Assembly (NCBI GenBank): GCA_963666835.2
Contig: CAXXGO010000001.1
Location: forward strand, 416,001-480,000
DNA from: Phycisphaerae bacterium
GTDB taxonomy: Bacteria; Planctomycetota; Phycisphaerae; UBA1845
Direction of reading: 5' to 3'
DNA length: 64,000 nucleotides
In this document: in pieces, positions 24,303 through 55,587 of the stretch
Position numbering within the stretch: position 1 is the stretch's first letter
Layout: every line of letters begins with the position of its first letter
Notes under the pieces: model-generated
Databases searched by the model: none
What the model saw: only the letters and a program-made list of their open reading frames with translations
Told to the model about the DNA's origin: nothing
Position numbers and translations under genes: made by a program

Positions 24303-27300
24303 CTACTCCGAATAACGCAGTCTGGACTCGAGCTTGCGCTTGACGGCCGGCGGCGGATCGCACTGACGCCCCTGGCGGAACGAACGGATTGCAGCCGCGA
24401 CCTGCTCGCAGGCGAGCTGGGCGTCGCCGAGCAGTAGCCACGCTTCGGCATTCCGCGGCTCGTACCTCGTGGCCGAACTTGCAGAAACCACCGCGGCGGC
24501 GAATTCACCCTGGGCGAGCTGCACCCGGCCCCTCACAAACCAGGCGTGTCCGTACCCCGGGAACACGTCCGTCGCCCGCTTCGCGTAATCCCCGGCCCGG
24601 TCAAGCCTCTGGGCCCGCTCGTGGACCAGAGCGGCAAGGACGAGGGCCTCGCCGTTGTCCGGATTGTCCTCGAGAACATCCTCCAGCCATGGAAGGGCCT
24701 TCTCCGCCGAACGGCGGTCCCCGGCGAGCATTGTCCGAGCCAGGCCTAGCCGGGCCGCGGTGTGGTCTTCGTCGACCTCAAGGGCCCGCTCGAAGTCTTT
24801 CCGGGCGGAACGCGTCCAGCCCTTCTTCCGCAGCTCGGCGTAGCCGCGAAGAACGAGAGTCTCCGCGTCGCGCGGATGGGCGTCCAGAATCTCCGTGCAG
24901 GCCTCGATGGCCGCATCGATCTTCCCGTCCTCGAGGTCGCGACACGCTCTGGCGAACAGATCCCGCTCGTTCTGCGGACGGGATTCGGCCGGTGGAGTAT
25001 CTCCCCGCAGCCCAGCCGCAATGTCGCTCGCCATGTGATCGGGAATCCCGGAGACGTGGCCGGACCACCGGGCTTGCCGCACCATGTTCCCGGTGGAAGC
25101 ATCGACAATCCGGACGAGGATCGAGACCATGCCCTCATCGAATCGGAACTCGCCATCGATCAACAGCTCGGCGCCGACGTGGCGAGCAGCGTCCGCCTTG
25201 TTCCCTCCGGCCGTCTCCAGAGCCCCAGCGACAGTCGCCCGCTCGACCACCGTACAAAGGTCTGCATCCCGCAATCCCAGGTAGAGTGCTTGATCGACAA
25301 GCGTCCCGAGGTGCCCGGATGGTGGCACCCCGGCGTCGTTGTTGACGGAGAACAACGCGCAGGTCTGCGCTGTGTAATCCACCGCTTCTTCGGACTCGAC
25401 CGCAGGCTCACCGGTCGCGACCGGCTCGCCCGCGCCGGCCTCTTCCGTCGATGTCACGTCGGCCGCGACATCCGTCTCCGCCACAACCCGGAGCCCGTAG
25501 GTGTAGCCGCGGAAGCCCGGCCTGCCCCTGCTTCGATACGCACAACGGCAGAAGCTCGCAAGGTCGAACCCCGAGCCGCCCCGGTGAACACGGTACATAC
25601 CGCTGTCAGGACCGGTCGGATCCCGGTCTGGAGAATCGGCATAATAGTCCTCTCCGTACCAATCACCGCACCACTCCCAGACGTTGTCGTGCAGGTCATA
25701 TAGGCCCCACGGGTTGGGCTGATTCACGCCCACTGAATGAATCTCAGACGCGGAAATACCCCGACACCAGGCGTGGTCGTCCAGACGGCCCTTCGAGTCG
25801 CCGAATGAGTACGCCGTCGTAGTGCCCGCTCGGCACGAGTACTCCCACTCCGCCTCCGTAGGTAGCCGGGTCGTTCGACCAGTCCGCGCCGACAGCTTCC
25901 GGCAGAATTCCTGGCAGTCACTCCACGATACCTTCTGTACCGGATGATCGGCGCCCGTGAACCCGGACGGAACGCCTCCCATAACCGCCCGCCACTGCGC
26001 CTGCGTTACCTCGTACTTGCCCAGGTAGAACGGCTGGCTGATTCGGACGCGATGCAGCGGGTCCTCGTCACTATCGCTGTTGCTCGACCCCATCAGGAAC
26101 TCGCCCGCCGGAATCAATACCAGCTCCATCGTCACCCCGCTGCCCAAATCGAGGGTGAGCGTCGAGGCGGGATCATACTGGCGTCCACTCTCCTCCCTCA
26201 GCCGATCGGACACCTCCGGTGTGCTCACAGCCTTCTCAGGTACCCCCGCCGCAACCCGAAACCCGACGCTGCAGTTCCGTTTGTCCGGCGTGCCTATGAC
26301 ACGATACGCCGAGCGCAGGCTCACACCGTGGATGTCCAAGGCCCCGCCCCTAAAAGCGCTTCCTCCGGTGTTTCTCGACCCCACCGGATCCACCTGGACA
26401 CCGGACGGGTAAGCGCCCAGCCAGTCTGCACACCACTCGTAGACATTGCCGTGCATATCATGCAGACCCCACGGGTTGGGCTGCTTCGTACCCACCGCGT
26501 GCGTCACCCCCCCGGAGTTACCTTTATGCCACGCGTAATCGCTCAGGCGAGCCGTCGAGTCTCCGAACGAATACGCCGTCGTCGTCCCGGCCCGGCACGA
26601 GTACTCCCACTCCGCCTCTGTCGGAAGCCGAATCGGATGCCCCGCGTGCCTGGACAGCCGCCGGCAGAACTCCTGAATGTCATTCCACGACACCCTCTCG
26701 ACCGGACGGTTGTCGCCCTTGAACTTCGACGGATCACTCCCCATCACCGCGCGCCACTGGGCCTGCGTTACCTCGTACTTGCCGATGTAGAACGGGCTGC
26801 TAATCCTGACGGGATGGGGCGGCCTCTCGCCACTGCCTCCGTTGTTCGAGCCCATGGTGAACTCGCCCGCAGGTATCAACACCAACTCCATCGTCACCCC
26901 GCCGCCCAGGTCGATGGTGCGCGTTGGGGCTAGATCCTGGCGACCTCCGATCCCATCCTCCAGTCGAACCGCCTTCGTAGCCCCGACCTCGGGGACCGGC
27001 GGTTCCTCCTTCGCTTCGTCATAATCCACGGTCCCGGCACCATCGGAGACTACCGCCGGATCCTCGATAGCGGTGATACGATCATGCTCGTCTAGCGCCT
27101 CCGGGTCATCAGGGAATAATGCCAGTGCCACGCGGACAGCCCTCAGTCCCCGGTCGCGCTGGGCATACGTTGTGCAATCCCTGGCCGTGACCATGTTCCG
27201 CTCGTATCTCTCGCGCCTCTTCCGTTGCTTAACGACCGCCGGATCTTCGATAGCCTCGATCCGATCGCGCTGGAGCAACGCCTCCGGGTCGTCGGGGTAT

Positions 27301-28819: not shown

Positions 28820-31417
28820 CTAGGGGGCCCCGGCTACAACACGGAACCCGACATCGAAGCGGCAGAAGTCGGGCGGGACCCCCACGCGGTCCGCAGAACG
28901 GGAAGTGTGGATTCGGCCCGCGAATTGGCCGCCACGCGCCACAAAGCGGCCCTCGCCATACTGCGGTCCGCGCGGGTCGATTTGTGAATCGGACGGGTAC
29001 CGGCCGTAGATATCCGCGCACCACTCGCACACGTTCCCGTGCATGTCATACAGACCCCAAGGATTCGGTTGCTTCTCACCAACTGGGTGAGCCTGGTTGC
29101 CGCTGTTGCTGTCGCACCATTCGAATGAGTCAATCCGATCGGGGGTGTCGCCAAACGAGTAGGCTGTCGTCGTGCCGGCCCGGCAGGCGTACTCCCACTC
29201 CGCTTCCGTTGGAAGACGAAACTCACGTCCAACCCGCCGCGAAAGCTCTCGACAGAAAGCCGTTGCGTCTTCCCACGAAACGGCGCGCATCGGGTGGCGA
29301 TCACCGTATCCCCTCAACCCCCAAGCCCCTTTCTTCTTGGCACGTTGCTGACGCAAGGTCGTGCCTGTAACGGCCTCCCATTGCGCCTGCGTCACTTCGT
29401 ACTTACCCATGTAAAACGGCCGGCTAATCCTCACCCGATGTTGCGGGCCTTCATCATCCTGACGGCCTGCTTCCGACGACGGCGAACCCATCATGAACTC
29501 ACCCGCCGGGATCAACACCAGCTCCATTGTCACTCCGCCACCGAGGTCGATCGTCAACGTCGGATCGGGACCATAGTACCCTTGGATCTTCTCCTTCAAC
29601 CGAAGGGCCTCGGAGTGGCCGGGATCGAGCACTAACAACTCCTTGAGAGCCTGCAACGCCGCCCTCCCGGTGGCTTCGCTATCGTTCGCCTTCGCCTCCC
29701 GCAACAACCCGGAGACCCGCTCACGCCGATCCCGGGCCGCACGCTCCTGAGGGGACTCTAGCGACTCCAAACGCCCACGCTCAGCCAACGCCGCCGAATT
29801 GGAAGGGTACAGTTCCAGGGCCCGACGAATCGCCGACAATCCCCTGTCACGATCCGGGTACGTCGTGCAGCCTCTGGCAGTGGTGAGTAGCTGGGAGAAC
29901 CTGCCCCGTTTCTCCCGTTCGGCAACCACCGCCGGATCCTCGATTCCGGCGATACGGGTTCGCTCCGCCAACGCCGCCGCGTCGTCAGGGTACAGAGCCA
30001 GAGCCTCACGCAAGGCCGTCAGACCCCGATCGCGGGAGGAATACGCCGTGCAACCCTTGGCCGTGGCAATTAGCTGCTCGTACTGCTGCCGCTTCTCGCG
30101 CTCGGCAACGACAACCGGATCCTCGATCCGCCCGATACGCTCCCGCTCCGCGATCGCTTGAGGGTCATCGGGGAACAGAAGCAACGCCTCCCGCACCGCG
30201 GAGAAACCCCTGTCACGATCCGAGTAGGTCGTACACGCCTCCGCAATGGCCAGCAGTTCATCGAATCGCGCAAGCTTCTGTTGGCCGAGATCAACCACCT
30301 CCGGGGGAGATTCAGCTTCTCGCCCGTCGTCAGGAGGAACCACCGCCATCTTACTAGATACCGGTGGCGAATCCGCTAGCTTCTCGGAAGTGCCCGACCC
30401 AACGCCCGAAATCGCCCACAACCAAACGGCCGCAAGGACCACCACGGCCGCAAGGGCCAGTATCCGACGACGGCCGCCGCGGCCGGTCGCGCGGAGGTCG
30501 CTCAGTAGTCCGGCTGCCGAGGCGTAGCGTTCCCTGGGGTCCTCGGGGAGACATCTGTCGACGACAGCGTCCCATCGCGTCGGCAGGGCGCGAACGACCC
30601 GGGACGGGGGCTTCGCCCTCGCCGTGGGCCGCTTGCCCGTGAGCAGTCGGTACACCACTACCCCGAAAGAGTAGATGTCCGTGCGCTCGTCAATCTGGCC
30701 GGTGCCTTCGCCGCGCTGCTCCGGGGACATATAGTCGTAGGTGCCCAGAATGCTAGAGGCGCTGCTCGTGCGGCGGCTGCCGCTTCCTTCCGCGGGGATC
30801 GTGGCCGCGGCGTCGAGGGAATCTAACGCGCCGTCCGGGGATGGCGAGTGCAGCGTCGGACCGCTGCCCAGCGAGTGCTGCATCGTCGAGTGGATCTGCG
30901 AGAGAATGAACTCGCTCCCGATCGCCTTGGCCAGGCCGAAGTCGGTCAGCTTCGCATCGCCATCGGCGTCGATCAGGATGTTGGCCGGCTTGAGATCACG
31001 GTGGATCACGCCCCGCTCGTGGGCGTACTGCAGCGCCTCGGCGATCTGGATGGACCACTTCCGCACTTTGGCCTCGGGCAAGCGGCCGTCCGGCTGCTGC
31101 TTGAGGTGCTCGTGCAGGCTCAGCGGCTTGCCCTCCGGTCCGGTCACGTAGTCCATGACCAGGAAGTACACCCCCTCGGCCTGGCTCATCTGGTGAACCT
31201 GCACGATGTTCGGATGATGCAGATCGGCCATCACCCGGGCCTCGTCGTAGAATCGGGCGACGAACCCCTTATCCTGCGCCAGCCCGGCCGGCAGGATCTT
31301 CAGCGCGTACTTCTTACGCAGGTGAACGTGCTCGGCCAGATAAACCTCGCCCATCCCACCCGCGCCGATAGATTCCACGACCCGATAGTCGCCGAGTTGT
31401 CTGTCGATGAACGTCAT
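28820..31417 (-). CDS. Ser/Thr kinase (type B) - TM - helical repeats - FGE-sulfatase with divergent C-terminus
   Basis: Start MTFIDRQLGDY. Kinase motifs intact. The FGE end (RGGQFAGRIHTSRSADRVG) departs from the VR consensus and no intact hairpin follows. Confidence 0.92.
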   Translation of the reverse strand: MTFIDRQLGDYRVVESIGAGGMGEVYLAEHVHLRKKYALKILPAGLAQDKGFVARFYDEARVMADLHHPNIVQVHQMSQAEGVYFLVMDYVTGPEGKPLSLHEHLKQQPDGRLPEAKVRKWSIQIAEALQYAHERGVIHRDLKPANILIDADGDAKLTDFGLAKAIGSEFILSQIHSTMQHSLGSGPTLHSPSPDGALDSLDAAATIPAEGSGSRRTSSASSILGTYDYMSPEQRGEGTGQIDERTDIYSFGVVVYRLLTGKRPTARAKPPSRVVRALPTRWDAVVDRCLPEDPRERYASAAGLLSDLRATGRGGRRRILALAAVVVLAAVWLWAISGVGSGTSEKLADSPPVSSKMAVVPPDDGREAESPPEVVDLGQQKLARFDELLAIAEACTTYSDRDRGFSAVREALLLFPDDPQAIAERERIGRIEDPVVVAEREKRQQYEQLIATAKGCTAYSSRDRGLTALREALALYPDDAAALAERTRIAGIEDPAVVAEREKRGRFSQLLTTARGCTTYPDRDRGLSAIRRALELYPSNSAALAERGRLESLESPQERAARDRRERVSGLLREAKANDSEATGRAALQALKELLVLDPGHSEALRLKEKIQGYYGPDPTLTIDLGGGVTMELVLIPAGEFMMGSPSSEAGRQDDEGPQHRVRISRPFYMGKYEVTQAQWEAVTGTTLRQQRAKKKGAWGLRGYGDRHPMRAVSWEDATAFCRELSRRVGREFRLPTEAEWEYACRAGTTTAYSFGDTPDRIDSFEWCDSNSGNQAHPVGEKQPNPWGLYDMHGNVCEWCADIYGRYPSDSQIDPRGPQYGEGRFVARGGQFAGRIHTSRSADRVGVPPDFCRFDVGFRVVAGAP

Positions 31418-31563: not shown

Positions 31564-31601
31564 GCTTGCCACTCAACTTCGCACGCCGCTATCAGCGGCG
31601 A

Positions 31602-31620
31602 CCAGGGGCTCCGCCCCTGG
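31602..31620 (-). promoter_or_regulatory. DGR-type target hairpin
   Basis: CCAGGGGC-GGA-GCCCCTGG (8-bp stem, 3-nt loop) after the VR and pyrimidine tract. A second hairpin CGCCGCT-GAT-AGCGGCG follows. Confidence 0.8.
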
Positions 31621-31642: not shown

Positions 31643-34216
31643 TTAAGGGGAAAAGGGTAAAGTCCCCGCCACAACCCGGAACCCGAGGCTGCTGCTGCGG
31701 AGGCCCGGCCTGCTCCTGATGCGATCCGCACAACGGCAGTAGTGAGCGAGGTAGATCCACGAGCCGCCCCGGAGAACACGGTATTTGCCACTACCAGGTC
31801 CGGTCGGGTTCGTACCCGGAGAGCTCGCATAATAGTCCTCTCCGTACCAGTCACCGCACCATTCCCAAACGTTCCCGTGCATATCATGCAAACCCCACCC
31901 GTTAGGCTGTTTCGCTCCCACCGAATGCGTCTGCTTCCCGGAGTTGCCCGTGTACCAAGCATGGTCGCCCAAGCCCCCCGAAGAGTCTCCGAACGAGTAC
32001 GACGACGTCGTTCCCGCCCGGCACGAATACTCCCACTCAGCCTCCGTAGGTAAACGGATCGTTCGACCAGTACGCGCCGACAACTTCCGGCAGAACTCCT
32101 GAATCTCGTTCCACGACACGCTCTCGACCGGCCGGCTGTCGCCCTTGAAATGCGACGGATTACTCCCCATCACCGCACGCCACTGCGCCTGCGTTACCTC
32201 ATGCTTGCCCATGTAAAACGGTTTGCTGATCCGTACCCGGTGTTGCGGGCCTTCATCGTCGTCGCGTTTCGCCTCTGACGACGGCGAACCCATCAAAAAC
32301 TCGCCCGACTCGATCAAAACCAGATCCATCGTCACCCCGCCGCCCACGTCCACGGTCAGCGACGGCTCCGGACCGTAATAACCTTCGATCTTCTCCTTCA
32401 GTCGAAGCGCCTCAGAGTGATCGGGTTCGAGCGTCAGCAGCGCCTCGAGAGCCCGCAAAGCGACCTTGCCGTTGGCCTTGCTGTCATTCGCCCTCGCATC
32501 CCGCAACAACCCGGCTATCCGCTCACGCCGGTCCCGGGCCGCACGCTCCTGAGGGGACTCCAGCGACTCCAAACGCCCACGCTCCGCCAACGCCGCCGAA
32601 TCGCCGGGGTACAATTCCAGAGCCCGACGAATCGCCGACAATCCGCGGTCACGCTCGGAGTACGTCGTGCAACCTCTGGCGGTAGTGACTAGCTGAGAGA
32701 ACCTGCCCCGTTTCTCCCGTTCGGCAACCACAGCCGGATCCTCGATTTCGGCAATACGGGCTCGCTCCGCCAACGCCGCCGCGTCGTCAGGGTACAGAGC
32801 CAGAGCCTCACGCGCGGCCGTCAAACCCCGATCGCGGCAGGCATACGCGGTACAACCGTTGGCCGTGGCAATCAGCCGCTCGTACTGCTGCCGCTTCTCG
32901 CGCTCGGCAACGACAACCGGGTCCTCGATCCGCCCGATACGCTCCCGCTCCGCGATCGCTTGAGGGTCATCGGGGAACAGAAGCAACGCCGCCCGTACCG
33001 CAGAAAAGCCCCTGTCACGATCCGAGTACGCTGTGCAGCCCTTCGCCGTAGCCATCAGTTCATCGAATCGCGCAAGCTTCTGCTGGCCGGGATCAACCAC
33101 CTCCGGGGGAGACTCAGCTTCCTGTTCTTCCGCAGGAACTGCCACCACTGGACCCGATACCGGGGACACGGCCGGCTCTGTATCGGGCGGACGCGACCCA
33201 GCCCCCAGAACCGCCCACAAACCAACGGCGGCCAGTACGACCACGCCCGCGACGGCCAGCGTCCGACGATGGCCGTTACGGCCGACCGCGCGGAGATCTT
33301 GCAGCAGCCCCGCTGCCGAGGCGTAACGGCTGGACGGCTGTCGGTCCAGGCATCGTGCCACGACCGTGTCCCATTGCTTCGATAACCCACGGACAAGCTG
33401 CGACGGAGGTTTGGCCATCCCGGCAGGTCTTTCCCCCGTCACGAGTCGGTACGCGACCACTCCGAACGAGTAGATGTCCGTCCGTTGGTCGATTTCGCCC
33501 GTGCCCTCGCCACGCTGCTCCGGAGACATGTAGTCGTATGTACCCAGGATGCTCGACGCGCTGCTCGTGCGGCGGTTGCCGCTCCCACCCTCGGGGATGG
33601 TGGCCGCGGCGTCGAGCGTGTCCAACGCGCCGTCCGGGGACGGCGAGCGAAGCGTCGGCCGGCTGCCCAAGGAATGTTGCATCGTCGAGTGGATCTGCGA
33701 AAGGATGAACTCGCTCCCGATCGCCTTGGCCAGGCCGAAGTCGGTCAGCTTCGCATCGCCATCGGCGTCGATCAGGATGTTGGCCGGCTTGAGGTCGCGA
33801 TGGATCACGCCCCGCTCGTGGGCGTACTGCAACGCCTCGGCGATCTGAATGGACCACTTCCGCACTTTGGCCTCGGGCAAGCGGCCGTCCGGCTGCTGCT
33901 TGAGGTGCTCGTGCAGGCTCAGCGGCTTGCCCTCCGGACCGGTCACGTAGTCCATGACCAGGAAGTACACCCCCTCGGCACAACTCATGGCGTGAACCTG
34001 GACGATGTGCGGGTGATGCAGGTCGGCCATCACCCGGGCCTCGTCGTAGAATCGGGCGACGAACCCCTTATCCTGGGCCAGCCCGGCCGGCAGGATCTTC
34101 AGCGCGTACTTCTTACGCAGGTGAACGTGCTCGGCCAGATAAACCTCGCCCATCCCACCCGCGCCGATAGATTCCACGACCCGATAGTCGCCGAGTTGTC
34201 TGTCGATGAACGTCAT
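31643..34216 (-). CDS. Ser/Thr kinase (type B) - TM - helical repeats - FGE-sulfatase; DGR target
   Basis: Kinase motifs, TM helix, FGE domain ending RGGSWIYLAHYCRCADRIRSRPGLRSSSLGFRVV. Confidence 0.93.
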   Translation of the reverse strand: MTFIDRQLGDYRVVESIGAGGMGEVYLAEHVHLRKKYALKILPAGLAQDKGFVARFYDEARVMADLHHPHIVQVHAMSCAEGVYFLVMDYVTGPEGKPLSLHEHLKQQPDGRLPEAKVRKWSIQIAEALQYAHERGVIHRDLKPANILIDADGDAKLTDFGLAKAIGSEFILSQIHSTMQHSLGSRPTLRSPSPDGALDTLDAAATIPEGGSGNRRTSSASSILGTYDYMSPEQRGEGTGEIDQRTDIYSFGVVAYRLVTGERPAGMAKPPSQLVRGLSKQWDTVVARCLDRQPSSRYASAAGLLQDLRAVGRNGHRRTLAVAGVVVLAAVGLWAVLGAGSRPPDTEPAVSPVSGPVVAVPAEEQEAESPPEVVDPGQQKLARFDELMATAKGCTAYSDRDRGFSAVRAALLLFPDDPQAIAERERIGRIEDPVVVAEREKRQQYERLIATANGCTAYACRDRGLTAAREALALYPDDAAALAERARIAEIEDPAVVAEREKRGRFSQLVTTARGCTTYSERDRGLSAIRRALELYPGDSAALAERGRLESLESPQERAARDRRERIAGLLRDARANDSKANGKVALRALEALLTLEPDHSEALRLKEKIEGYYGPEPSLTVDVGGGVTMDLVLIESGEFLMGSPSSEAKRDDDEGPQHRVRISKPFYMGKHEVTQAQWRAVMGSNPSHFKGDSRPVESVSWNEIQEFCRKLSARTGRTIRLPTEAEWEYSCRAGTTSSYSFGDSSGGLGDHAWYTGNSGKQTHSVGAKQPNGWGLHDMHGNVWEWCGDWYGEDYYASSPGTNPTGPGSGKYRVLRGGSWIYLAHYCRCADRIRSRPGLRSSSLGFRVVAGTLPFSP
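31685..31756 (-). repeat. DGR variable region core
   Basis: NNC-type variation relative to the sister VRs. Confidence 0.9.
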
Positions 34217-34441: not shown

Positions 34442-37552
<3,111 letters not shown>

Positions 37553-37740: not shown

Positions 37741-40386
37741 CTACTCCTCTACCCAGTTCTTGATGTCGTCGCTGCCTTCCTTGCCACCGTCGTCCTTCCC
37801 GTCAGGTCCACAACTCCACAGGTCGAATGCGTGCTCATTCACTTCGCCTGGGCAGCGATACTCGTACGGATTTTTCCATGGATCAACAAGCTCATCCGAC
37901 TTCCCCTCGAGATAGGGCCCTCGGTACCGCTCGTCAGAGGCGAGATTCACCGGAGGAAACAACGCTGCGAGGCCCTGATTAGTGTCCGGGAACACCATCA
38001 TATCCCATCTGTAGGCGGACAGGGCCTTGGCGATTCGACCACTTCGGTGCACAGCAGCTTTGGCCGTATCGATGCGCGCTTCCTCCGACTCGCGCGCCAC
38101 GGTCACGACGGCACCATGACCGGCACGAGGGAAAGCCACAGGGGTTGCAGACTGGCCGCTCCCTGAAACGCGGTGCGGATCACGAGATTGGACATTAGCC
38201 ACAACGCGGAACCCGATGTAGTTGCTGCGGATGTCCGGCCCGGCCATGGCGCGAAACGCACAACTGCAGTAGAGCGCATAGTTGGCCCACGAGCCTCCCC
38301 GGAGAACACGGGACGTTCCTCTACCAGGACCGGCCGGGGCCGTGTCCAGAGAGTTCGCATAGTAGTCCCAGTCATGCCAATCACCGCACCACTCCCAGAC
38401 GTTTCCGTGCATGTCATACAGACCCCACCCGTTAGGCTGTTTCGTACCCACCGCATGCGTATTCCGCCCGGAGTTATCCCAGTACCAAGCATGGTCGCCC
38501 AAGCCCCCCGCCCAGTCTCCGAACGAATACGCCGTCTCCGTGCCCGCTCGGCACGCGTACTCCCACTCTGCCTCCGTAGGTAACCGCATTGTTCGACCCG
38601 CACGACGAGCCAACCACTCGCAAAACGCCGTCGCGTCGGTCCAACTGACGCATGCCACCGGGTGTTCATCGGTCTGGCTGTAACCCGGATCCCGCCAGCT
38701 CAGCCCAGCAACCAACTGCCACTTCCCGTCCTTCCCCGCCCTTGCGTCGCCGTATTTCTCCGCGTCCGTTACGTGCCCCGTGGACTCCACGAAACACCGA
38801 AACTGGCCCACCGTGACCTCACGTGTCGCCATGTAGAACGGCTTGCTGATCCGAACGCGTTGGCGTGGCTTTCCGTCGAAATCTTCGTTGTGCCAGTCCG
38901 TAAACACCAGCTCCACCGCGCGCGAGACCGAGGAGTAGTCGTACGCCTTGGTCGAAAATTCGCCCGACTCGATCAAAACCAGCTCCATCGTCGACCCGCT
39001 GCCCAAGTCGATGGACAGTGTGTTCGAGAGATCGCTTGCCGCGGCCGCATTCTCATGCGTGGCGGGTCGAGAAGCCTGCGTCGATTGCTCGGGAGGAGAG
39101 TCCGTTGCTCTTGGCTTCTTGCCCTGCGATGATTGCGTCATTCCCGGAGAAGGGGTCTCGCGAGTCCTTGGTGCGTTCGATGAGTACTGCTTGGAGAGTC
39201 CTCCGGAATGCCAAACCAGCAACGGGATGACAAACGACGCGACCAGCACCAGAATGTCCCCAAATTCAAGAGTCCTACGGCGTCCTTTCTTCGCGCCAGA
39301 CCGTACCGGCTCTCGCACGACCGCTTCCGCCGCTAAAGCCGGCTCTTTCTGCCCAGTGGGCGCCGTGGCGTCGACCGCAGGCGGTCTCGGCTCTTCACCG
39401 GTCTTCGAAGGTAACTGGACGGGCCTCGCGAACTTCGCCGGCGACTCGAACAGTTCGACAAGCCCCTGCGCGCTGGTTGGGCGATCCTGTTGATCCTTGG
39501 CTAGCCCTCGTCGAATCGCGGCATTAACGTGCGGCGAGACGTCCTCGATCTCCGGGGGCTCAAGGTGCAGGAGTTGATGCCCGATCGAGCCCTGATAGAA
39601 CGGCGGGTGGCCGGCTAGGCATTCGTACAGCGTCGCGGCGAAAGAGTACACGTCCGATGCCTCCGTCGGCGGTTTGCCACTGAACTGCTCCGGCGACATG
39701 TACAGCAGGGTCCCCGACGTCTCCTGGCCGGTGACCCGGGTCATCGAGTCCTTCAGTTCCCGGGCGATTCCGAAATCCAGCACCAGCGCGTGCCCGTCGG
39801 GTGTCACCATGATGTTCGACGGCTTGATGTCGCGGTGCAGCACCGGCGGGGAGCTGCTATGGGCATGGTCCAACGCTTCGGCCACGTCCCTGGCGATCGG
39901 CAGCAGCTCGCCAAGGGGCATCAGGCGATCGGCTTTGCCGTCCAGCAGCTCCTCCAGCGTCTGCCCCTGAATGTACTCCATCACGAGGAACTTGACGTCA
40001 CCGTCGGCGTTGAACGTGTGCAGCCGGCAGATCCGCGGATGAGTGAGCCGCAGGGCGATGGCCGCCTCGCGCTTGAGGCTCTTGATGCTGCGGGGGTTAC
40101 GAGCCAACATCGGCGGCAGGACCTTGATGGCGACCGGCATGTCATCCAGCTCGGTATCCACGGCCTGCCACACTTCGCCCATGCCGCCCGAACCAAGCCG
40201 ATTCCCCACGCGATACCGCCCGGCCAGCACGCGACCCTCGCACAGCTCACCGGCATGCACGGTCCTCGCCCCGTCGAGCGTATCGCCGGCACCCGGCGCG
40301 GCGAGATCATCCAACACCGAGCCGCAGTGCTTGCACTTGACGGCTTGGTCCTGGATCTCCTCGGCGCAGAACGGGCAGGTCTTCAT
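37741..40386 (-). CDS. Zinc ribbon - Ser/Thr kinase (type C) - TM - FGE-sulfatase - GspG-like pseudopilin domain
   Basis: MKTCPFCAEEIQDQAVKCKHCG, HRDIKPSN, DFG, TM, FGE. C-terminus QGLAAL..YRGPYL..DPWKNPYEYRCPG..FDLWSCGPDGK..DDIKNW. Confidence 0.9.
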   Translation of the reverse strand: MKTCPFCAEEIQDQAVKCKHCGSVLDDLAAPGAGDTLDGARTVHAGELCEGRVLAGRYRVGNRLGSGGMGEVWQAVDTELDDMPVAIKVLPPMLARNPRSIKSLKREAAIALRLTHPRICRLHTFNADGDVKFLVMEYIQGQTLEELLDGKADRLMPLGELLPIARDVAEALDHAHSSSPPVLHRDIKPSNIMVTPDGHALVLDFGIARELKDSMTRVTGQETSGTLLYMSPEQFSGKPPTEASDVYSFAATLYECLAGHPPFYQGSIGHQLLHLEPPEIEDVSPHVNAAIRRGLAKDQQDRPTSAQGLVELFESPAKFARPVQLPSKTGEEPRPPAVDATAPTGQKEPALAAEAVVREPVRSGAKKGRRRTLEFGDILVLVASFVIPLLVWHSGGLSKQYSSNAPRTRETPSPGMTQSSQGKKPRATDSPPEQSTQASRPATHENAAAASDLSNTLSIDLGSGSTMELVLIESGEFSTKAYDYSSVSRAVELVFTDWHNEDFDGKPRQRVRISKPFYMATREVTVGQFRCFVESTGHVTDAEKYGDARAGKDGKWQLVAGLSWRDPGYSQTDEHPVACVSWTDATAFCEWLARRAGRTMRLPTEAEWEYACRAGTETAYSFGDWAGGLGDHAWYWDNSGRNTHAVGTKQPNGWGLYDMHGNVWEWCGDWHDWDYYANSLDTAPAGPGRGTSRVLRGGSWANYALYCSCAFRAMAGPDIRSNYIGFRVVANVQSRDPHRVSGSGQSATPVAFPRAGHGAVVTVARESEEARIDTAKAAVHRSGRIAKALSAYRWDMMVFPDTNQGLAALFPPVNLASDERYRGPYLEGKSDELVDPWKNPYEYRCPGEVNEHAFDLWSCGPDGKDDGGKEGSDDIKNWVEE
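38215..38286 (-). repeat. Internal VR-like segment (no hairpin)
   Basis: Fits the VR consensus except AGT for CGT and ATG for NGG. Confidence 0.72.
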
Positions 40387-45984: not shown

Positions 45985-47553
45985 TCACATCCCGACTTGG
46001 GCAAGTTCCTCAACGCTCCCTTGCAGCCCGCCGCCGAGCTGAAGACCGGGCGACAGCGGAAACGCGCTGCCGGCCGCGATCGGGACACCGTCGGCCACGA
46101 GGTTGTTCTCGTCGGCTTGGCTCTCTACCCAGAGACGCTCGCCGAGTCGCAGGACCCGCAACTGCCGGCGATCCGCACCGGTCCCGGATACGCGGATCTC
46201 GTTGTCGACACCCGCCCCACAGCCGGCCCAACGGTACACCACTACGTAACGTTCCTCGTTGGTGAGGTTGTCCACCCGCTCGATGAGCAGGGAACGCAAG
46301 CCGAGGCTCTCGGAAATCTGCCACAGAGAGTCGGGCGGGCCCAGCCGGGCGTACCGCTCGGCGGTCACGGCCGCCTCGCCCGCGGCATCGCGGTAGGGAG
46401 TCATCCGCAGCCGCAAGGTCGAGGCCACGTCCACCTCCGCCGGTCTATCCAACGGCAGCTTCACTTCGCCGGTAACGGGTTGCCCGTCCACCCGCGTCCC
46501 GTTCACGGTCTTGCGGTCGGCCAGGTACAGACCGTCGCGCCGCAACGCGATCACGAGGTGCGATTGGCCGATCATCCGAGTCGAGTGATCGTGTTCTTTC
46601 GAACGCGGAACGAGCCGGAGGATTACGTCGTTCTGCTCGCGTTTGCGGCCCATCCGGATCTTGGACTGCCCCAGCAGCAACGTTCGCGTCTCGCCGCCGG
46701 CGCCGTCCCGCAGAATGATCGAGGCCTTGTCGAGCTGCCGCTGAGTCCTGGCCAGCTCGTCGACCAGCCGGATTCCCGCGTCGCGGCGCAGCAGGCTCAC
46801 GCCGTTCCACTGCGCGGGGTAGACCTGCTTGATCAAGTCGTTGACATCGCGGATCTGGCCAGCGGCGACATCTTTGGTCACCTGGTCGCGGACGCTGAGC
46901 CCATAGCCGATGTTGCCCCCGGCGTGCATGCTCGCGTCGATGTTGATCGTCGAGGGGTTCTCGTTTCTGGCCCAGACCTTCAGGAACGGCTGGGCGGTCC
47001 AGACGTGAATCTCGCCGCCGATTCGGAAGCGCAGGGTGATGTCGACCACGTGCTCCCCGGCCAGCTCGGGGACGATCTGAATCCGGTCGTGCCCGTCACG
47101 ATACTCGTTCACGCGAACCACCGGGAACCGGCGCTCGTGCGTCGTGCCCAGCAACTGGCTGGATACCGAGAAAGACACGTCCTCGATGTTCCCCCCGCTG
47201 CGGTTCAGAAGACGAAACTCCAGCGCGCAGGCGTACTTCTCCATGTAGAAGTGGTTGTCGTTGATCTCCAGCTCGATAGGGGGAGTCTCGACGCCAGCTC
47301 CGGGAGTCGCCTCTACCCCGCAGCACGGGTCCCCGGGCTTTCGCGACGCTGCCGGCGCGTCTCCGGGGTCCGGCCGGACGCCCGCTGCCTCCGGTGGGGC
47401 CGGGTCCGTCCGGTCCTCGGCCGTTGCGGGTCCACCGCCTGGTGCGGTACTATCGATTCCGTCGTCCTCGGCCGCCATCAGCTTCTCGCCGCATTCCGTG
47501 CAGAAGCTCGCGGTGTCGTCTTCCGCCGCCGCTCCGCATCTCGGACACTTCAC
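45985..47553 (-). CDS. Zinc ribbon - shared beta-rich domain - FHA domain protein
   Basis: CPRCG..FCTECG. FHA-like RMGRK..ND...IGQSHLVI...DRKTVNGTRVDG. GTG start overlaps the stop of the avd-like ORF. Confidence 0.8.
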   Translation of the reverse strand: MKCPRCGAAAEDDTASFCTECGEKLMAAEDDGIDSTAPGGGPATAEDRTDPAPPEAAGVRPDPGDAPAASRKPGDPCCGVEATPGAGVETPPIELEINDNHFYMEKYACALEFRLLNRSGGNIEDVSFSVSSQLLGTTHERRFPVVRVNEYRDGHDRIQIVPELAGEHVVDITLRFRIGGEIHVWTAQPFLKVWARNENPSTINIDASMHAGGNIGYGLSVRDQVTKDVAAGQIRDVNDLIKQVYPAQWNGVSLLRRDAGIRLVDELARTQRQLDKASIILRDGAGGETRTLLLGQSKIRMGRKREQNDVILRLVPRSKEHDHSTRMIGQSHLVIALRRDGLYLADRKTVNGTRVDGQPVTGEVKLPLDRPAEVDVASTLRLRMTPYRDAAGEAAVTAERYARLGPPDSLWQISESLGLRSLLIERVDNLTNEERYVVVYRWAGCGAGVDNEIRVSGTGADRRQLRVLRLGERLWVESQADENNLVADGVPIAAGSAFPLSPGLQLGGGLQGSVEELAQVGM

Positions 47554-47942
47554 CACCGCGTATCTCCCCTGTATCTCGGGCATGTTGCCCGGTTCTCCCA
47601 ATGCCCCGCCCGGGGCAATGACTGCATGAGCCGGGCGGGATCACAATGTGCATTCGTCTCTTGTGCATTATAGCACGAATGAATCCTCAGCTCGTTGGCC
47701 AGCCGGGTAAGCATCCGGACAACCTGGAGATCGAGATTCGTTCCCGTCAGTAACGCCGCCCGAGTCTCCCTCGGGCTGTACTTGGCGCGAATCAGATCCT
47801 CCAAGACGGTGTACAGACCCTGCTTGAGCCGCGCTCCGATCCCGTAACGGCGACATCGCGGGAACTTCGCCAGCCGATCGATGTACCATCGAACAAGCTC
47901 GCACATACGGTCAATGACGACCAGCTCCTCGTATTTAGCCAT
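47550..47942 (-). pseudogene. avd: 3'-truncated DGR accessory variability determinant (copy 1)
   Basis: ELVVIDR..ELV.W..RLAKFPR..RYGIG.RL...LY..LE.LI.AKY...LL...NL.L...R.L.RLA.EL matches Avd for ~88 aa. The terminal EIG(R/K)xxGGW helix is absent. Confidence 0.8.
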
Positions 47943-47966: not shown

Positions 47967-49508
47967 TCAGCGGCGGCCAGGGGCTCCGCCTCTGGACCCC
48001 GGAAAAAGAGAAGAGGGTGAACTCCCCGCCACAACACGAAACCCGCTGCTGGAGAGGCGGCCGTCCGGCCAGTTCCTGCCGCGATTCGCACAACGGCAGT
48101 TGTGCGCATCGATGCTCCACGAGCCGCCCCGGAGAACACGGCACTGCCCACTACCCGGACCGGTCGGGTCCGTGCCTGGAGAATCCGCATAGTAGGCCTC
48201 TCCATACCAGTCACCGCACCACTCCCAGACGTTGCCGTGCATATCGTACAGGCCCCACGGGTTAGGCTGTTTCATGCCCACCGCGTGCGTCTTCTGCCCG
48301 GAGTGCTTGTGATACCAAGCATGGTCGCCCAAACGTCCCGTCGATTCTACGAACGAATACGGCGTCGTCGTCCCCGCCCGGCACGAGTACTCCCACTCCG
48401 CCTCCGAGGGAAGCCGTATCACACGTCCACTATGATCAGACAATCTCTGGCAGAATTCTCGGCAGTCCTCCCACGATACGTTCTCTACCGGACGATCGTC
48501 GCCCCTGAAATGTGACGGATTGTCGCCCATCACTGCCTGCCACTGAGCCTGCGTCACCTCGTATTTGCCCAGGTAGAACGGCTGGCTTATCCGGATGCGA
48601 TGGGGAGGCTTCTCGTCACGGTCTCCGTTGTTCGAACCCATGACGAACCCGCCCGCCGGAATCAGAACCAAATCCATCGCCAGACCGCTGCCAAGATCCA
48701 GCTTAGTGGGCTCAGGGTCGACAATCGCTTCCTGGATGCGCTTCGTGTACTGGGCAATGTCTGCACCACAGCTTCCACAGTAAGCATGGCCCATCCGATT
48801 CTCTTCACCACACGTGGGACACGTCCTCGTTCCAGCCTCCCGGCCTCCCGCATGGCGACGCAGCAGGCTCACGCGGCTCCACTGCGCGGGGTAGACCCGA
48901 TTGATCAGGTCGTTGACGTCGCGGATCTGGCCAGCAGCGACATCTCTGGATACCTGGTCACTGATCTTGTGTCCGTAACCGATGCTGCCCCCGGCGATCA
49001 TGCTCGCATCAAAGATGATCGTCGAGGGGTTCTCGTTTCTGGCCCACACCTTCAGGAACGGCTGCGCGGTCCAGACGTGGAGCTCGCCGCCGATCCGGTA
49101 GCGCAGCGTAATGTCGACCACGTGCTCCCCGGCTAGATCGGGGACAATCGCAATCCGGTCGTGCCCATCACGGTGTTCCTTCAGCCGGATTACCGGGAAT
49201 CGGCTTTCGTGCGTGATGCCCAACAGCTTGCTGGACACCAAGAAGGACACGTCCTCGATGTTGGCACCGCTGCGATTCAAAAGACGGAACTCCAGCACGC
49301 ACGCGTACATCTCCATGTAGAAGTGATTGTCGTTGATCGCGAGCTCGATCGGGGGAGTCTTGACCCCGGCCCTCGGGTGATGCAAACCCGACTCGTCTTC
49401 GGCCGCGACCAGTCCACCGCTCTCGACCGCCACAAGTTGCGCGCCGCATTCCGCGCAGAAGCTGGCGGTGTCATCTTCCGCCGCCGCTCCGCATTTCGGG
49501 CACTTCAC
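47967..49508 (-). CDS. Zinc ribbon - shared beta-rich domain - zinc ribbon - FGE-sulfatase; DGR target without kinase or TM
   Basis: N-terminal ~200 aa homologous to 45985-47553. FGE end RGGSWSIDAHNCRCANRGRNWPDGRLSSSGFRVV. The ORF reads through the hairpin. Confidence 0.88.
   Translation of the reverse strand: MKCPKCGAAAEDDTASFCAECGAQLVAVESGGLVAAEDESGLHHPRAGVKTPPIELAINDNHFYMEMYACVLEFRLLNRSGANIEDVSFLVSSKLLGITHESRFPVIRLKEHRDGHDRIAIVPDLAGEHVVDITLRYRIGGELHVWTAQPFLKVWARNENPSTIIFDASMIAGGSIGYGHKISDQVSRDVAAGQIRDVNDLINRVYPAQWSRVSLLRRHAGGREAGTRTCPTCGEENRMGHAYCGSCGADIAQYTKRIQEAIVDPEPTKLDLGSGLAMDLVLIPAGGFVMGSNNGDRDEKPPHRIRISQPFYLGKYEVTQAQWQAVMGDNPSHFRGDDRPVENVSWEDCREFCQRLSDHSGRVIRLPSEAEWEYSCRAGTTTPYSFVESTGRLGDHAWYHKHSGQKTHAVGMKQPNPWGLYDMHGNVWEWCGDWYGEAYYADSPGTDPTGPGSGQCRVLRGGSWSIDAHNCRCANRGRNWPDGRLSSSGFRVVAGSSPSSLFPGSRGGAPGRR
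47977..47995 (-). promoter_or_regulatory. DGR-type target hairpin (1 mismatch)
   Basis: CCAGAGGC-GGA-GCCCCTGG. Confidence 0.7.
48045..48116 (-). repeat. DGR variable region core
   Basis: NNC-type variation relative to the sister VRs. Confidence 0.88.
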
Positions 49509-49897
49509 CACCGCATATCTCCCCTGTATCTCAGGCACCTTGCCCGGTTTTCCCAATGCCCCGCCCGGGGCAATGACTGCATGAGCCGGGCGGGATCGCA
49601 ATGTGCGTTCGTCTCTTGTGCATCATAGCACAGGTGAATCCTCAGCTCGTTGGCCAGCCGGGTCAGCATCCGAACAACCTGGAGATCGAGATTCGTTCCC
49701 GTCAGTAACGCCGCCCGAGTCTCCCTCGGGCTATACTTGGCGCGAATCAGATCCTCCAAGACGGTGTATAGACCCTGCTCGAGCCGCGTTCCGATTCCGT
49801 AGCGATGACATCGCGGGAACTTCGCCAACCGATCGATATACCAGCGAACAAGCTCGTATGCACGGTCGATGACGACCAGCTCCTTGTGTTTAGCCAT
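49505..49897 (-). pseudogene. avd: 3'-truncated DGR accessory variability determinant (copy 2)
   Basis: Near-identical to 47550-47942, with the same breakpoint after LANELRIH. Confidence 0.8.
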
Positions 49898-49972: not shown

Positions 49973-52560
<2,588 letters not shown>

Positions 52561-52564
<4 letters not shown>

Positions 52565-52797: not shown

Positions 52798-55587
52798 TTA
52801 AGGGGAAAACGGTAAAGTCCCCGCCACAACCCGGAACCCGACGTAGTCGTTGCGGAGGCCCGGCCTGCACCAGCGGCGATTCGCACAACGGCAGTAGCGG
52901 GCGAGGCTGAGCCACGAGCCGCCCCGGAGAACACGGTATTTGCCACTACCAGGTCCGGTCGGATCAGCGCCCGGGGAATCCGCATAATAGTCCTCTCCGC
53001 ACCAATCACCGCACCACTCCCAGACGTTCCCGTGCATGTCATACAAGCCCCACGCGTTGGCTGGGAAACTGCCAACAGACGTGGTCTTCTCGCGGTACAC
53101 ACCCTTTCTTCCTTCACCGTACGGGTGATTCCCGTCATAGTTCACCTGATCCGGCGAGATCGTGCTGCCAAAATGGAACGGGGTCGTCGTCCCCGCCCGG
53201 CACGAGTACTCCCACTCAGCCTCCGTAGGTAAACGGATCGTTCGACCAGCTCTCTCAGACAGCTTCCGGCAGAACTCCTGAATACCGTCCCACGATACCT
53301 GCTCCACCGGAAGATCGTCGCCCTTGAAATGCGACGGATTACTCCCCATCACCGCACGCCACTGCGCCTGCGTTACCTCATGCTTGCCCATGTAAAACGG
53401 TTTGCTGATCCGTACCCGGTGTTGCGGGCCTTCATCGTCGTCGCGTTTCGCCTCTGACGACGGCGAACCCATCAAAAACTCGCCCGACTCGATCAAAACC
53501 AGATCCATCGTCACCCCGCCGCCAAGATCGATCGTTTGCTCACGGAGGGCGAGCCAGGGTTCCAGTTTTCGGCGCAGGTCACCCGCTATTCGATTCTCAC
53601 TGTCGAGTGCCAGAGCTGCGTCGATCTCTGCAACCGCGCGGTTCGCCGCAGCCTTCTCGCTCTCCGAGCGTCGGGCCGTCGGCCCAGCATCGAGATTCAA
53701 CCCGACATCGGCAATGATCTTCCGCGAGGCGGACAGGTGCCCCTCGATCTTGCCAACCGCGGTTTCGGTGATCCTGAGAGCTTCCTCGTACTTGCCGGCC
53801 GCCTGCCCGTACAACTTTCGAGCTCCAACGAAGTCCGTTCCAGCGCCCTGAGCCCGGCGCATCAGCTCCTGGGCATCGTCCAGAGCGGTCGAGGCGAACT
53901 TCCAGCCATCGCCAGTATTCGCTCGATCCTGGGCGGCCAGGGCTTCCCTGCGCGCCGCAGCTATGATGGCTTCACCCTGTTGCCGGGTCTCCTCAATCGC
54001 GAGAGTGAATCGCTCGATCGCCCGCCGGAGCAAACTCGTGGCCTCCACTCGATCGGACGTTTCCATCGCCTGTTCTTCGAGCTTCCTGGCCTGCGCGAAA
54101 CGAACGTGTGCCCACGTTTCGACGTCCAATGCAGCGGCCTCCCCCTTGGCCGACTCAAGCTCCTCTTGAGCCTGCCGAAACGCCTCTATCTCCGACTTGA
54201 TCCTCCGTGCGGCCTGCTCGGCTTCGCCGAAGACCCGGCTCGCCTCATCGTACTTGGCGACGGCATCGCCAAAGGAAGTCAGAGTGTCGTGGGCTTCGCC
54301 CTCGGCCAGGAGTTTTTCGGCGTTGGAGAGCACATCGGGTGTGTGAACCTGCGCATCGGCAGCTCGCGCCGCTTGCCGAGCGGCAAGAGCAGCGATCCGC
54401 GCACGGCTGGCTTGATCCGCCGTGGCCGTGGTGGTTTCCTCGGTGGCGGGAGGTTTGTCTTGGATATCCGGTGGTCGTACCGTCGATTGACGATCCGGTG
54501 TGCTACGCGGTGGATCCTGCTGTTGGACAACTCGGGCATTCGATGGTGGCGCAGGAGTACTCGACCCAACACCCGAGATCGCCCAGACCCCGACGGCGGC
54601 CAGTACGATCACCACCGCAAGAGCCAGCATCCGGCGGCGGCCGCTACGGCCGACCGCGCGGAGATCTTGCAGCAGTGCCGCTGCCGAGGCGTAACGGCTG
54701 GACGGCTGTCGGTCCAGGCATCGTGCCACGACCGTGTCCCATTGCTTCGATACCCCCCGGACAAGCTGCGACGGAGGTTTGGCCATCCCGGCAGGTCTTT
54801 CCCCCGTCACGAGTCGGTACGCGACCACTCCAAACGAGTAGATGTCCGTCCGTTGGTCGATTTCGCCCGTGCCCTCGCCACGCTGCTCCGGAGACATGTA
54901 GTCGTATGTACCCAGGATGCTCGACGCGCTGCTCGTGCGGCGGTTGCCGCTCCCACCCTCGGGGATGGTGGCCGCGGCGTCCAGGGTGTCCAACGCGCCG
55001 TCCGGTGACGGCGAACCGAGCGTCGGCCGGCTGCCCAGGGAGTGCTGCATCGTCGAGTGAATCTGCGATAGGATAAACTCGCTGCCGATGGCCTTGGCTA
55101 AGCCGAAGTCGGTCAGCTTCGCATCGCCGGTGGAGTCGATCAGGATGTTGGCCGGCTTGAGGTCGCGATGGATCACGCCCCGCTCGTGGGCGTACTGCAA
55201 CGCCTCGGCGATCTGGATAGACCACTTGCGGACCTTCGCCTCCGGCAGGCGGCCGTCCGGTTGCTGCTTGAGGTATTCGTGCAGGCTCAGCGGCTTGCCC
55301 TCCGGACCGGTCACGTAGTCCATGACCAGAAAATAGACCCCCTCGGCCTGGCTCATTTGGTGGACCTGGACGATGTGCGGGTGATGCAGGTCGGCCATCA
55401 CCCGGGCCTCGTCGTAGAAACGGGCCACGAACCCCTTATTCTGCGCCAGCCCGGCCGGCAGGATCTTCAGCGCATACTTCTTGCGTAGGTGGACGTGCTC
55501 GGCCAGATAAACCTCGCCCATCCCACCCGCGCCGATAGGCTCCACGATCCGATAGTCGCCGAGTTGTCTGTCGATGAACGTTCCCAT
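52798..55587 (-). CDS. Ser/Thr kinase (type B) - TM - distinct helical stalk - FGE-sulfatase; DGR target
   Basis: MGTFIDRQLGDY start, kinase motifs, FGE end RGGSWLSLARYCRCANRRWCRPGLRNDYVGFRVV. Confidence 0.93.
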   Translation of the reverse strand: MGTFIDRQLGDYRIVEPIGAGGMGEVYLAEHVHLRKKYALKILPAGLAQNKGFVARFYDEARVMADLHHPHIVQVHQMSQAEGVYFLVMDYVTGPEGKPLSLHEYLKQQPDGRLPEAKVRKWSIQIAEALQYAHERGVIHRDLKPANILIDSTGDAKLTDFGLAKAIGSEFILSQIHSTMQHSLGSRPTLGSPSPDGALDTLDAAATIPEGGSGNRRTSSASSILGTYDYMSPEQRGEGTGEIDQRTDIYSFGVVAYRLVTGERPAGMAKPPSQLVRGVSKQWDTVVARCLDRQPSSRYASAAALLQDLRAVGRSGRRRMLALAVVIVLAAVGVWAISGVGSSTPAPPSNARVVQQQDPPRSTPDRQSTVRPPDIQDKPPATEETTTATADQASRARIAALAARQAARAADAQVHTPDVLSNAEKLLAEGEAHDTLTSFGDAVAKYDEASRVFGEAEQAARRIKSEIEAFRQAQEELESAKGEAAALDVETWAHVRFAQARKLEEQAMETSDRVEATSLLRRAIERFTLAIEETRQQGEAIIAAARREALAAQDRANTGDGWKFASTALDDAQELMRRAQGAGTDFVGARKLYGQAAGKYEEALRITETAVGKIEGHLSASRKIIADVGLNLDAGPTARRSESEKAAANRAVAEIDAALALDSENRIAGDLRRKLEPWLALREQTIDLGGGVTMDLVLIESGEFLMGSPSSEAKRDDDEGPQHRVRISKPFYMGKHEVTQAQWRAVMGSNPSHFKGDDLPVEQVSWDGIQEFCRKLSERAGRTIRLPTEAEWEYSCRAGTTTPFHFGSTISPDQVNYDGNHPYGEGRKGVYREKTTSVGSFPANAWGLYDMHGNVWEWCGDWCGEDYYADSPGADPTGPGSGKYRVLRGGSWLSLARYCRCANRRWCRPGLRNDYVGFRVVAGTLPFSP
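52840..52911 (-). repeat. DGR variable region core
   Basis: NNC-type variation relative to the sister VRs. Confidence 0.9.

What the first reader, a model, noticed from the sequence alone, without database searches (positions are those of the whole stretch)
25497..52911. Seven variable regions allow reconstruction of a template repeat that is absent from the window
Seen: I aligned the 72-nt cores at 25497, 31685, 34484, 38215, 48045, 50015 and 52840. Variation is almost confined to codon positions 1-2 of NNC/NNT codons, position 1 of NGG and position 2 of GNC. TGC CGT TGT GCG, CGC and CCG stay essentially fixed. Established: this is the footprint of DGR adenine-specific mutagenesis from AAC/AAT-rich templates. 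Inferred TR, coding strand: TCG TGG AAC AAC AAY GCN (C/A)AC AAC TGC CGT TGT GCG AAT CGC AAC AGG AAC AGG CCG GAC AAC CGC AAC AAC AAC AAC GGG TTC CGG GTT GTG GCG, with roughly 28-30 mutable adenines. I saw neither this sequence nor a reverse transcriptase in the window, although both island ends are visible. The targets would therefore depend on a remote TR/RT or be fossil. Caveat: the third positions of codons 3 and 4 vary without any A being seen.
Basis: partly seen in the sequence, partly recalled or inferred. Interest (0 to 1): 0.86.

Follow-up and report, generated by a model that had tools for sequence, protein, structure and literature searches.

The report
Orphaned hypermutation targets with deletion scar
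Seven neighbouring genes, most of them receptor-like kinases, carry binding sites that a known bacterial hypermutation device (a DGR) once scrambled; the device's enzyme and template have since been cut out and a visible scar remains, so this is most likely a frozen receptor repertoire of a known kind.

Summary
Confirmed. The seven 72-nt cores are DGR variable regions (VRs) in C-type-lectin/FGE domains; six lie in single-pass Ser/Thr kinases, all on a 43.7-kb tmRNA-integrated island. Variable columns match the adenines of real template repeats (TRs) in 14 of 14 relative loci tested (p 3e-8 to 3e-15), and substitutions follow the published DGR bias. The 6.0-Mb assembly (92% complete) holds no matching TR and no intact DGR reverse transcriptase (RT). 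At 47550-47942 and 49505-49897, avd codons 1-87 join directly to the DGR RNA's 3' end, which lies about 1.35 kb further on in five full-length relative cassettes, so RT and TR were deleted here. Two more DGR relics lie elsewhere on the contig. One VR pair differs at 21 adenine sites between 968 identical flanking bases, suggesting late activity. Best reading: recently orphaned, frozen array (0.62). Rivals: an engine missing from the assembly (0.20), or an old fossil homogenised by recombination (0.16). Orphan DGR targets are published, and this scan noted four similar cases in other genomes.

The parts
25497..25568 (-). VR core (T group), internal: 393 aa follow it; no hairpin downstream; 3 off-site changes
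31685..31756 (-). VR core (C group), C-terminal; 0 off-site changes
34484..34555 (-). VR core (C group); differs from VR31685 at 21 sites, all inferred adenines, between 561 and 407 nt of identical flanks
38215..38286 (-). VR core (T group), internal: 153 aa with a T2SSG-like domain follow; no hairpin; 3 off-site changes
48045..48116 (-). VR core (T group) in the zinc-ribbon/CLec gene; hairpins and avd scar downstream
50015..50086 (-). VR core (C group); hairpins and avd scar downstream
52840..52911 (-). VR core (C group), C-terminal
24303..28763 (-). kinase - TM - helical repeats - two CLec/FGE domains - TPR (1486 aa)
28820..31417 (-). kinase - TM - repeats - CLec paralog whose C-terminal end (about 28835-28945) no longer fits the template
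31643..34216 (-). kinase - TM - repeats - CLec target gene (857 aa)
34442..37552 (-). kinase - TM - CLec target gene (1036 aa)
37741..40386 (-). kinase - TM - CLec - T2SSG-like gene (881 aa)
47967..49601 (-). zinc-ribbon - CLec target gene; no kinase and no clear TM; start codon uncertain
49973..52564 (-). kinase - TM - repeats - CLec target gene (863 aa)
52798..55587 (-). kinase - TM - CLec target gene (929 aa)
31584..31620 (-). tandem GC-rich DNA hairpins with 3-nt loops after a pyrimidine tract (DGR target-site element); further copies at 34383-34419, 47959-47995, 49914-49950 and 52739-52775
   Evidence: 5 copies genome-wide, all in the window; z -3.5 for this copy; -1.35 to -2.0 for three others
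47682..47942 (-). 5' part of avd (codons 1-87), scar 1
   Evidence: (PF22296 model 1-80 of 107, below cut-off)
47605..47681 (-). deletion junction (about 47670-47682) and 3' end of the DGR RNA spacer with its terminal hairpin
49637..49897 (-). 5' part of avd (codons 1-87), scar 2
49560..49636 (-). deletion junction and 3' end of the DGR RNA spacer, scar 2
45985..47601 (-). zinc-ribbon - FHA gene; possible phospho-threonine reader for the kinases (inference)
13418..13772 (+). tmRNA; its 3' end (13751-13769) is the left attachment site
13900..15138 (+). tyrosine integrase of the island (open frame, 412 aa)
57459..57477 (+). right attachment site (19-nt direct repeat)

Best explanation
This is a recently orphaned DGR target array. 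The island once held a cassette of the order target - hairpins - avd - RT - TR - 3' spacer. Its RT-Avd complex copied the TR RNA with errors at adenines and pasted the cDNA into VRs marked by the hairpins. While that ran, the target end (CLec + VR + hairpins) was duplicated and shuffled onto several kinase genes, giving membrane receptor kinases with different ligand-binding pockets. A deletion of about 1.35 kb then joined avd codon 87 to the spacer's 3' end and removed RT and TR. Some engine kept working late enough to separate VR31685 from VR34484 and is now gone too, so the seven pockets are fixed alleles. Shown: VR pattern, hairpins, scar, no engine in the assembly, kinase motifs and one TM. 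Inferred: order of events, outward-facing CLec, ligand sensing, present inactivity.
For: (1) Variable columns match adenines of real TRs in 14 of 14 loci; deviations from the inferred template are 127 of 203 at adenine sites and 7 of 301 elsewhere (partly circular). (2) Substitutions T:G:C = 57:41:22 fit the published bRT-Avd bias (p 0.48) and not a uniform one (p 5e-4). (3) avd start to 3' element is 310 nt in both scars and about 1650-1690 nt in five full-length relative cassettes (L131, L141, L142, L143, L145); that spacer is a structured RNA, 13 of 40 predicted pairs showing double changes. (4) No TR: a fixed-position scan gives 75-81 of 81 for the seven VRs and at most 58 for anything else; AAC-rich and motif scans found none in the printed output; four relative cassettes used as BLAST queries hit only VRs, scars and relics. 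(5) No intact DGR RT: the 14 RVT_1 hits are 13 group II intron-type RTs and one CRISPR-type fusion (labels from recalled motifs), 27-31% identical to a clade RT; the only clade-like hit is a 36-codon stub. (6) Avd proteins from two other contigs end at the same place (P0006, 90 aa; P0007, 91 aa), so the scar is unlikely to be an assembly error. (7) Where VRs could be compared they were unchanged: P0012 reads VR52840 identically in a shifted frame; X2 contigs span VR38215 and VR48045 with 0 differences (X2 may be the source sample).
Against: The assembly is 92.3% complete in 7 contigs, so an engine could be unassembled or on an unbinned element. The two scars differ at 20 of 261 avd bases while the youngest VR pair has 0 differences in 968 flanking bases. 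If the deletion happened once, hypermutation outlasted it, which needs a further engine. Five VRs still have hairpins, and four match one template with no off-site change, as live remote targets would. Only contigs could be laid, they drop rare variants, and 755 difference rows were not shown.
Confidence: 0.62

Rival explanations
1. The VRs are live remote targets. An intact avd-RT-TR lies in an unassembled part of the genome, in a minority strain, or on an unbinned mobile element, and works in trans on the hairpin-bearing VRs.
For: Four VRs fit one template perfectly and keep their hairpins. The youngest pair diverged only at adenine sites. The assembly is about 8% incomplete. Trans action and minority strains with intact loci are described in Thiohalocapsa (PMC10907252).
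Against: No TR or RT in 6.02 Mb. An exact 24-nt template motif found 0 matches in genome contigs and metagenome contigs (the own genome or very near ones may be left out). All DGR remains in this assembly are broken. The three VRs that could be compared were unchanged.
Confidence: 0.2
2. An old fossil. Hypermutation stopped when the cassette was deleted, and later recombination between paralogs made the flanks of VR31685 and VR34484 identical while leaving the old VRs in place.
For: The paralogs are clear mosaics, with identity switching between 0 and about 30 differences per 50 nt. The scars have diverged 7.7%, and the same truncation occurs in other assemblies.
Against: It needs two recent tracts that both stop at the VR edge. 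The four C-group VRs have 0 off-site changes in 172 positions, which is hard to square with 7.7% drift since the engine died. The scars show a weak excess of silent changes (11 seen, 7 expected, p about 0.05), so part of their divergence may predate the deletion.
Confidence: 0.16
3. Not a DGR footprint: ordinary positive selection or gene conversion on ligand-binding loops of paralogs.
For: Binding loops do diverge under selection (general knowledge), and the array recombines.
Against: Third positions in the core are nearly frozen (0.058) while those upstream are not (0.390). The match to real TR adenines, the DGR base bias, the avd and spacer remnants and the hairpins are all unexplained without a DGR.
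Confidence: 0.02

Closest known systems
Degenerate DGR loci of Thiohalocapsa PB-PSB1 (Dore et al. 2024, PMC10907252; parts 1-4 of 9 of the text read)
   Same: CLec/FGE targets, duplicated and domain-shuffled; loci lacking RT or TR; DGR 7 has VRs with no perfect template elsewhere in the genome; read as ligand or antigen sensors.
   Different: PB-PSB1 keeps one complete locus per class, and its losses are tied to transposons and MITE-like arrays. Here no complete locus is in the assembly, the loss is a clean avd-to-spacer deletion present twice, and seven VRs share one missing template.
Partial DGRs of DUSEL4 Nanoarchaeota (Paul et al. 2015, PMC4372165; passages read)
   Same: Target, VR and cis elements without an RT, read there as fossils or remote targets; hairpins with GRA trinucleotide loops (the first hairpin here has a GGA loop).
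   Different: That genome holds complete DGRs and two partial ones; here there are seven VRs, a deletion scar and no complete DGR.
Cyanobacterial kinase-CLec DGR targets and remote paralogs (Vallota-Eastman et al. 2020, PMC7517822; passages read)
   Same: Hanks-type Ser/Thr kinase fused to a C-terminal CLec domain with a VR; families of paralogs.
   Different: Those genomes have the RT and TR, and most of their targets are predicted to be cytosolic. Here all 7 kinases have one TM between kinase and CLec, lie in tandem on an integrative island, and have no engine.
Treponema denticola TvpA and its remote targets; tandem targets in Stenotrophomonas (Wu et al. 2018, PMC5758913; passages read; PDB 2y3c)
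   Same: 2y3c is the best structural relative by sequence (E 5.9e-46), with the VR in register; seven remote targets in Treponema and eight tandem targets in Stenotrophomonas are on record.
   Different: TvpA is a lipoprotein without a kinase, and both systems have their RT and TR.

Membership tests
DGR (complete, active element) | VR differing from a template essentially only at adenines | tested here: met
   Against real TRs of relatives, 14 of 14 loci significant. The cognate TR itself is missing, so the direct TR-VR comparison is with an inferred core.
DGR (complete, active element) | Template repeat present in the genome | tested here: not met
   the assembly is 92.3% complete.
DGR (complete, active element) | Intact DGR-type RT (GxxxSQ motif, PMC7826257) | tested here: not met
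   only group II intron-type and CRISPR-type RTs, plus a 36-codon stub at G000:C1:625664-625771.
DGR (complete, active element) | Full-length avd | tested here: not met
   Both window copies stop at codon 87. A near-full Avd domain at G000:C1:484534-484833 is fused to an unrelated tail and belongs to another relic.
DGR (complete, active element) | GC-rich hairpin downstream of the VR | tested here: met
   5 of 7 VRs; loops are 3 nt, not the 4-nt GRNA of phage DGRs (PMC3240598).
DGR (complete, active element) | IMH differing from IMH* | not testable with these tools
   The TR end that carries IMH* is deleted.
DGR (complete, active element) | VR in a C-type-lectin fold near the C-terminus | tested here: met
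   PF03781 in all seven genes; best PDB match TvpA. Two VRs are now internal. No structure was predicted.
DGR (complete, active element) | Ongoing adenine-site polymorphism in the population | tested here: inconclusive
   Only contigs were available; no change seen in 3 of 7 VRs that could be compared.
Orphan or fossil DGR targets | VR and cis elements without RT and TR | tested here: met
Hanks-type receptor Ser/Thr kinase | Catalytic Lys, HRDxKPxN, DFG, [AS]PE motifs and one TM | tested here: met
   7 of 7 kinase genes (motifs recalled, Pfam PF00069). Activity and topology are untested.
Known anti-phage defence system (PADLOC) | System-specific gene set | tested here: inconclusive
   14 island proteins scanned; 3 had hits, all to generic kinase, HTH or primase parts.

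The most novel reading that the evidence does not exclude
A 'diversify, duplicate, freeze' cycle. Planctomycete DGRs of this clade lose RT and TR repeatedly, perhaps at a preferred avd-spacer junction, and a mobile island then carries a fixed multi-receptor repertoire. The intact hairpin-tagged VRs can be switched on again when a matching engine arrives in trans from another element or strain. The scar would then be a recurrent off-switch, not chance decay.
Probability: 0.1. Interest if true: 0.72.

Novelty: new member of a known kind. Interest (0 to 1): 0.4.

Why it matters
DGR surveys that start from the RT miss targets like these; Roux et al. say their approach would not detect remote targets (PMC8144416, passage read). 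This locus shows that an extinct template can be rebuilt from paralogous VRs and checked against relatives, and it shows one physical route by which a DGR dies. It also gives seven natural variants of one binding pocket, six of them on receptor-like kinases, which is a ready panel for asking what cellular DGR targets bind. The mechanism itself is known.

Tried and rejected
Exact 24-nt template motif: 0 hits in genome contigs and metagenome contigs; with 3 mismatches, 5 of 278 other genomes of the order matched, none with the cognate TR. Avd query in genome contigs: no confirmed relative among 380 candidates. The full Avd domain 4.5 kb beyond the window was checked as a possible engine: no TR or RT follows it. 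The 14 RVT_1 hits were rejected as DGR RTs. Microhomology as the cause of the deletion: a 9-nt match at the equivalent place in 1 of 5 relatives (chance about 1.6% per locus), so only suggestive. Strain variants of the VRs: protein searches listed no near-identical variant from elsewhere (best 120 shown each; best outside hits 63% and 66%). Read test: contigs only, no RNA holder listed; no listed X2 piece bridges either junction. ARAGORN found no tRNA or tmRNA in the window; Rfam found the tmRNA. PADLOC gave no specific system. Literature: 'Phycisphaerae' with 'diversity-generating retroelement' gave 0 papers; two searches listed 2 and 1 papers, and none of their titles or abstract starts describes an avd-spacer scar. 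Subscription papers and all supplements were not seen, and supplements of PMC10907252 and PMC5758913 may hold similar cases. No structure or complex was predicted.

Full report
Observation. The window is G000:C1:416001-480000 of a 6.02-Mb assembly in 7 contigs, 92.3% complete. Mean pairwise difference by codon position is 0.448, 0.389 and 0.058 in the core, and 0.179, 0.214 and 0.390 upstream. The core therefore varies at positions 1-2 and is frozen at position 3, the reverse of normal drift.

Is it a DGR footprint? Inferring adenines from the variation and then testing them is circular, so I used real templates. I picked 14 TR loci from the relatives fetched. In 14 of 14, their adenines coincide with the variable columns (Fisher p 3.3e-8 to 3.2e-15; the loci are related, so not independent). 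The inferred core is 50-63 of 72 nt identical to them. The T>G>C order fits the bias measured for the Bordetella enzyme (PMC7826257, passages read; p 0.48) and not a uniform mix (p 5e-4). One relative TR (L151, 62 of 72) has GCA CAC at codons 4-5, so codon 4 position 3 is probably a 29th adenine. Codon 3 position 3 is T in three VRs and C in four. The four C-group VRs have no off-site difference from one template; the three T-group VRs have 1-3 each. This suggests two template versions or two epochs (inference).

The targets. Six VRs lie in genes of the form kinase - one TM - helical linker - CLec; the seventh is in a zinc-ribbon - CLec gene. All 7 kinase genes of the array keep the catalytic motifs and one hydrophobic helix near residues 320-375. 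The best solved relative is TvpA (2y3c, E 5.9e-46), with the VR in register. Five VRs are followed by a pyrimidine tract and two GC-rich hairpins, which occur nowhere else in the assembly; such hairpins are needed for retrohoming in BPP-1 (PMC3240598, passages read). VR25497 and VR38215 have lost them and are now internal. An FHA gene and a Band-7 gene sit in the same run. I infer receptor-like kinases with outward-facing variable pockets; the ligand is unknown, and PADLOC gave only generic hits for 3 of 14 proteins. The array lies on a 43.7-kb island between a tmRNA 3' end (13751-13769) and its repeat (57459-57477), with an open integrase frame.

No engine in the assembly. A scan with the 81 fixed positions scores the seven VRs 75-81 and everything else at most 58. 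AAC-rich windows and template motifs gave no TR in the printed output, which was cut. The 14 RVT_1 hits are 13 group II intron-type proteins and one CRISPR-type fusion (labels from recalled motifs). Four DGR RTs and a closer one hit them at only 22-32%. That last search was sensitive enough to find a 36-codon stub of a clade RT at C1:625664-625771 (67%), part of a shattered relic. A third relic lies at C1:483.4-485 kb: a different CLec gene and an Avd domain fused to an unrelated tail. DGR RTs at E<=1e-40 occur in 5 of 100 other genomes of the family.

The scar. The two 130-codon ORFs at 47550-47942 and 49505-49897 match Avd only to about residue 87. Within about 20 nt the sequence turns into the conserved 3' end of the DGR RNA, found downstream of the TR in relatives. 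That segment folds with compensatory changes across nine relative loci (13 of 40 pairs). In BPP-1 the spacer binds Avd and primes reverse transcription (PMC7826257); that this clade's spacer does the same is inference. From the avd start to this element is 310 nt here and about 1650-1690 nt in five full-length cassettes, four with an open RT frame and one frameshifted. About 1.35 kb, holding the avd end, RT and TR, was therefore deleted, with the same junction in both copies. Avd proteins on two other contigs end at residues 90 and 91, and an X1 contig has a 1-nt insertion at 47669 next to the junction. A 9-nt microhomology at the equivalent place exists in 1 of 5 relatives, which is weak. Other decayed forms turned up among relatives: a VR joined to the spacer (L139, L148), avd and TR without an RT hit (L138, L154), and a target with avd only (L014). 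This was not a systematic count.

Timing. VR31685 and VR34484 differ at 21 sites, all inferred adenines, between 561 and 407 nt of identical DNA. The scars differ at 20 of 261 avd bases, 11 of them silent against 7 expected (p about 0.05). Either two intact sister cassettes diverged and then both lost the same piece, or one deletion was duplicated and another engine worked on for a long time, or recombination polished the flanks; the paralogs are mosaics. I cannot separate these. The absence of off-site changes in the C group (0 of 172) argues for late activity.

Present activity. Six runs from two studies were listed as holding the stretch or part of it, all as contigs; four were laid on 33600-53500. 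X2 contigs span VR38215 and VR48045 with no difference, but X2 may be the source. A protein on another contig reads VR52840 unchanged in a shifted frame. This leans to frozen but is inconclusive.

Comparison with what is known. Target-only DGRs read as fossils or remote targets are described (PMC4372165, passages), as are degenerate loci without a template (PMC10907252, parts 1-4 of 9), kinase-CLec paralogs (PMC7517822, passages) and up to eight tandem or seven remote targets (PMC5758913, passages). This scan noted four orphan or decayed DGRs in other genomes (unchecked). The locus works like a DGR target array but fails membership as a complete DGR. My searches listed nothing on an avd-spacer scar or on DGRs in Phycisphaerae; they cover open-access text only, and no supplements were read.

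Verdict. New member of a known kind, unusually well preserved. Recently orphaned and frozen 0.62, remote engine 0.20, old fossil 0.16, not a DGR 0.02. Interest 0.40.

Noticed in passing
G000:C1:623303-625763: Shattered DGR relic: an avd fragment, a 672-aa P-loop NTPase-like ORF (KAP-like by recalled motifs), a CLec fragment, then the avd 3' end and the first 36 codons of a clade RT.
   Followed up: partly
L011:5200-7271 (G000:C1:483.2-485.3 kb): CLec gene with a different VR-like end, followed by a near-full Avd domain fused to an unrelated tail; no TR or RT. A paralog follows at L011:7546-11871, and several dispersed paralogs show NNC-rich ends, possibly a second orphan VR family.
   Followed up: partly
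window 26250-26360 and 28835-28945: Two further CLec ends in the array that no longer fit the template (53 and 55 of 81 fixed positions); probably older targets.
   Followed up: partly
G000:C5:148497-148662 and C1:839291: CLec gene ends with a VR-like codon pattern but only 57-58 of 81 matches.
   Followed up: no
window 57446-58927: A second tyrosine integrase ends on top of the right attachment site, suggesting a second element using the same tmRNA site; short repeated motifs lie just inside both island ends.
   Followed up: no
G000:C6:1808095-1810968: 958-aa open frame with a central RT that looks like a Cas6-RT-Cas1 fusion (flanking domains judged by eye).
   Followed up: no
G000 C1, C6, C7: Twelve near-identical group II intron-type RT copies, 10 of them on C6; the C1 copy has a shorter open frame.
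   Followed up: no
L139, L148, L132, L138, L154, L014: Other decayed cassettes of this DGR clade in relatives, including apparent VR-TR recombinants that removed avd and RT.
   Followed up: partly
window 40412-47601: Band-7/zinc-ribbon, two uncharacterised envelope-type genes, an HTH gene and a zinc-ribbon/FHA gene lie co-oriented in the middle of the kinase array.
   Followed up: no
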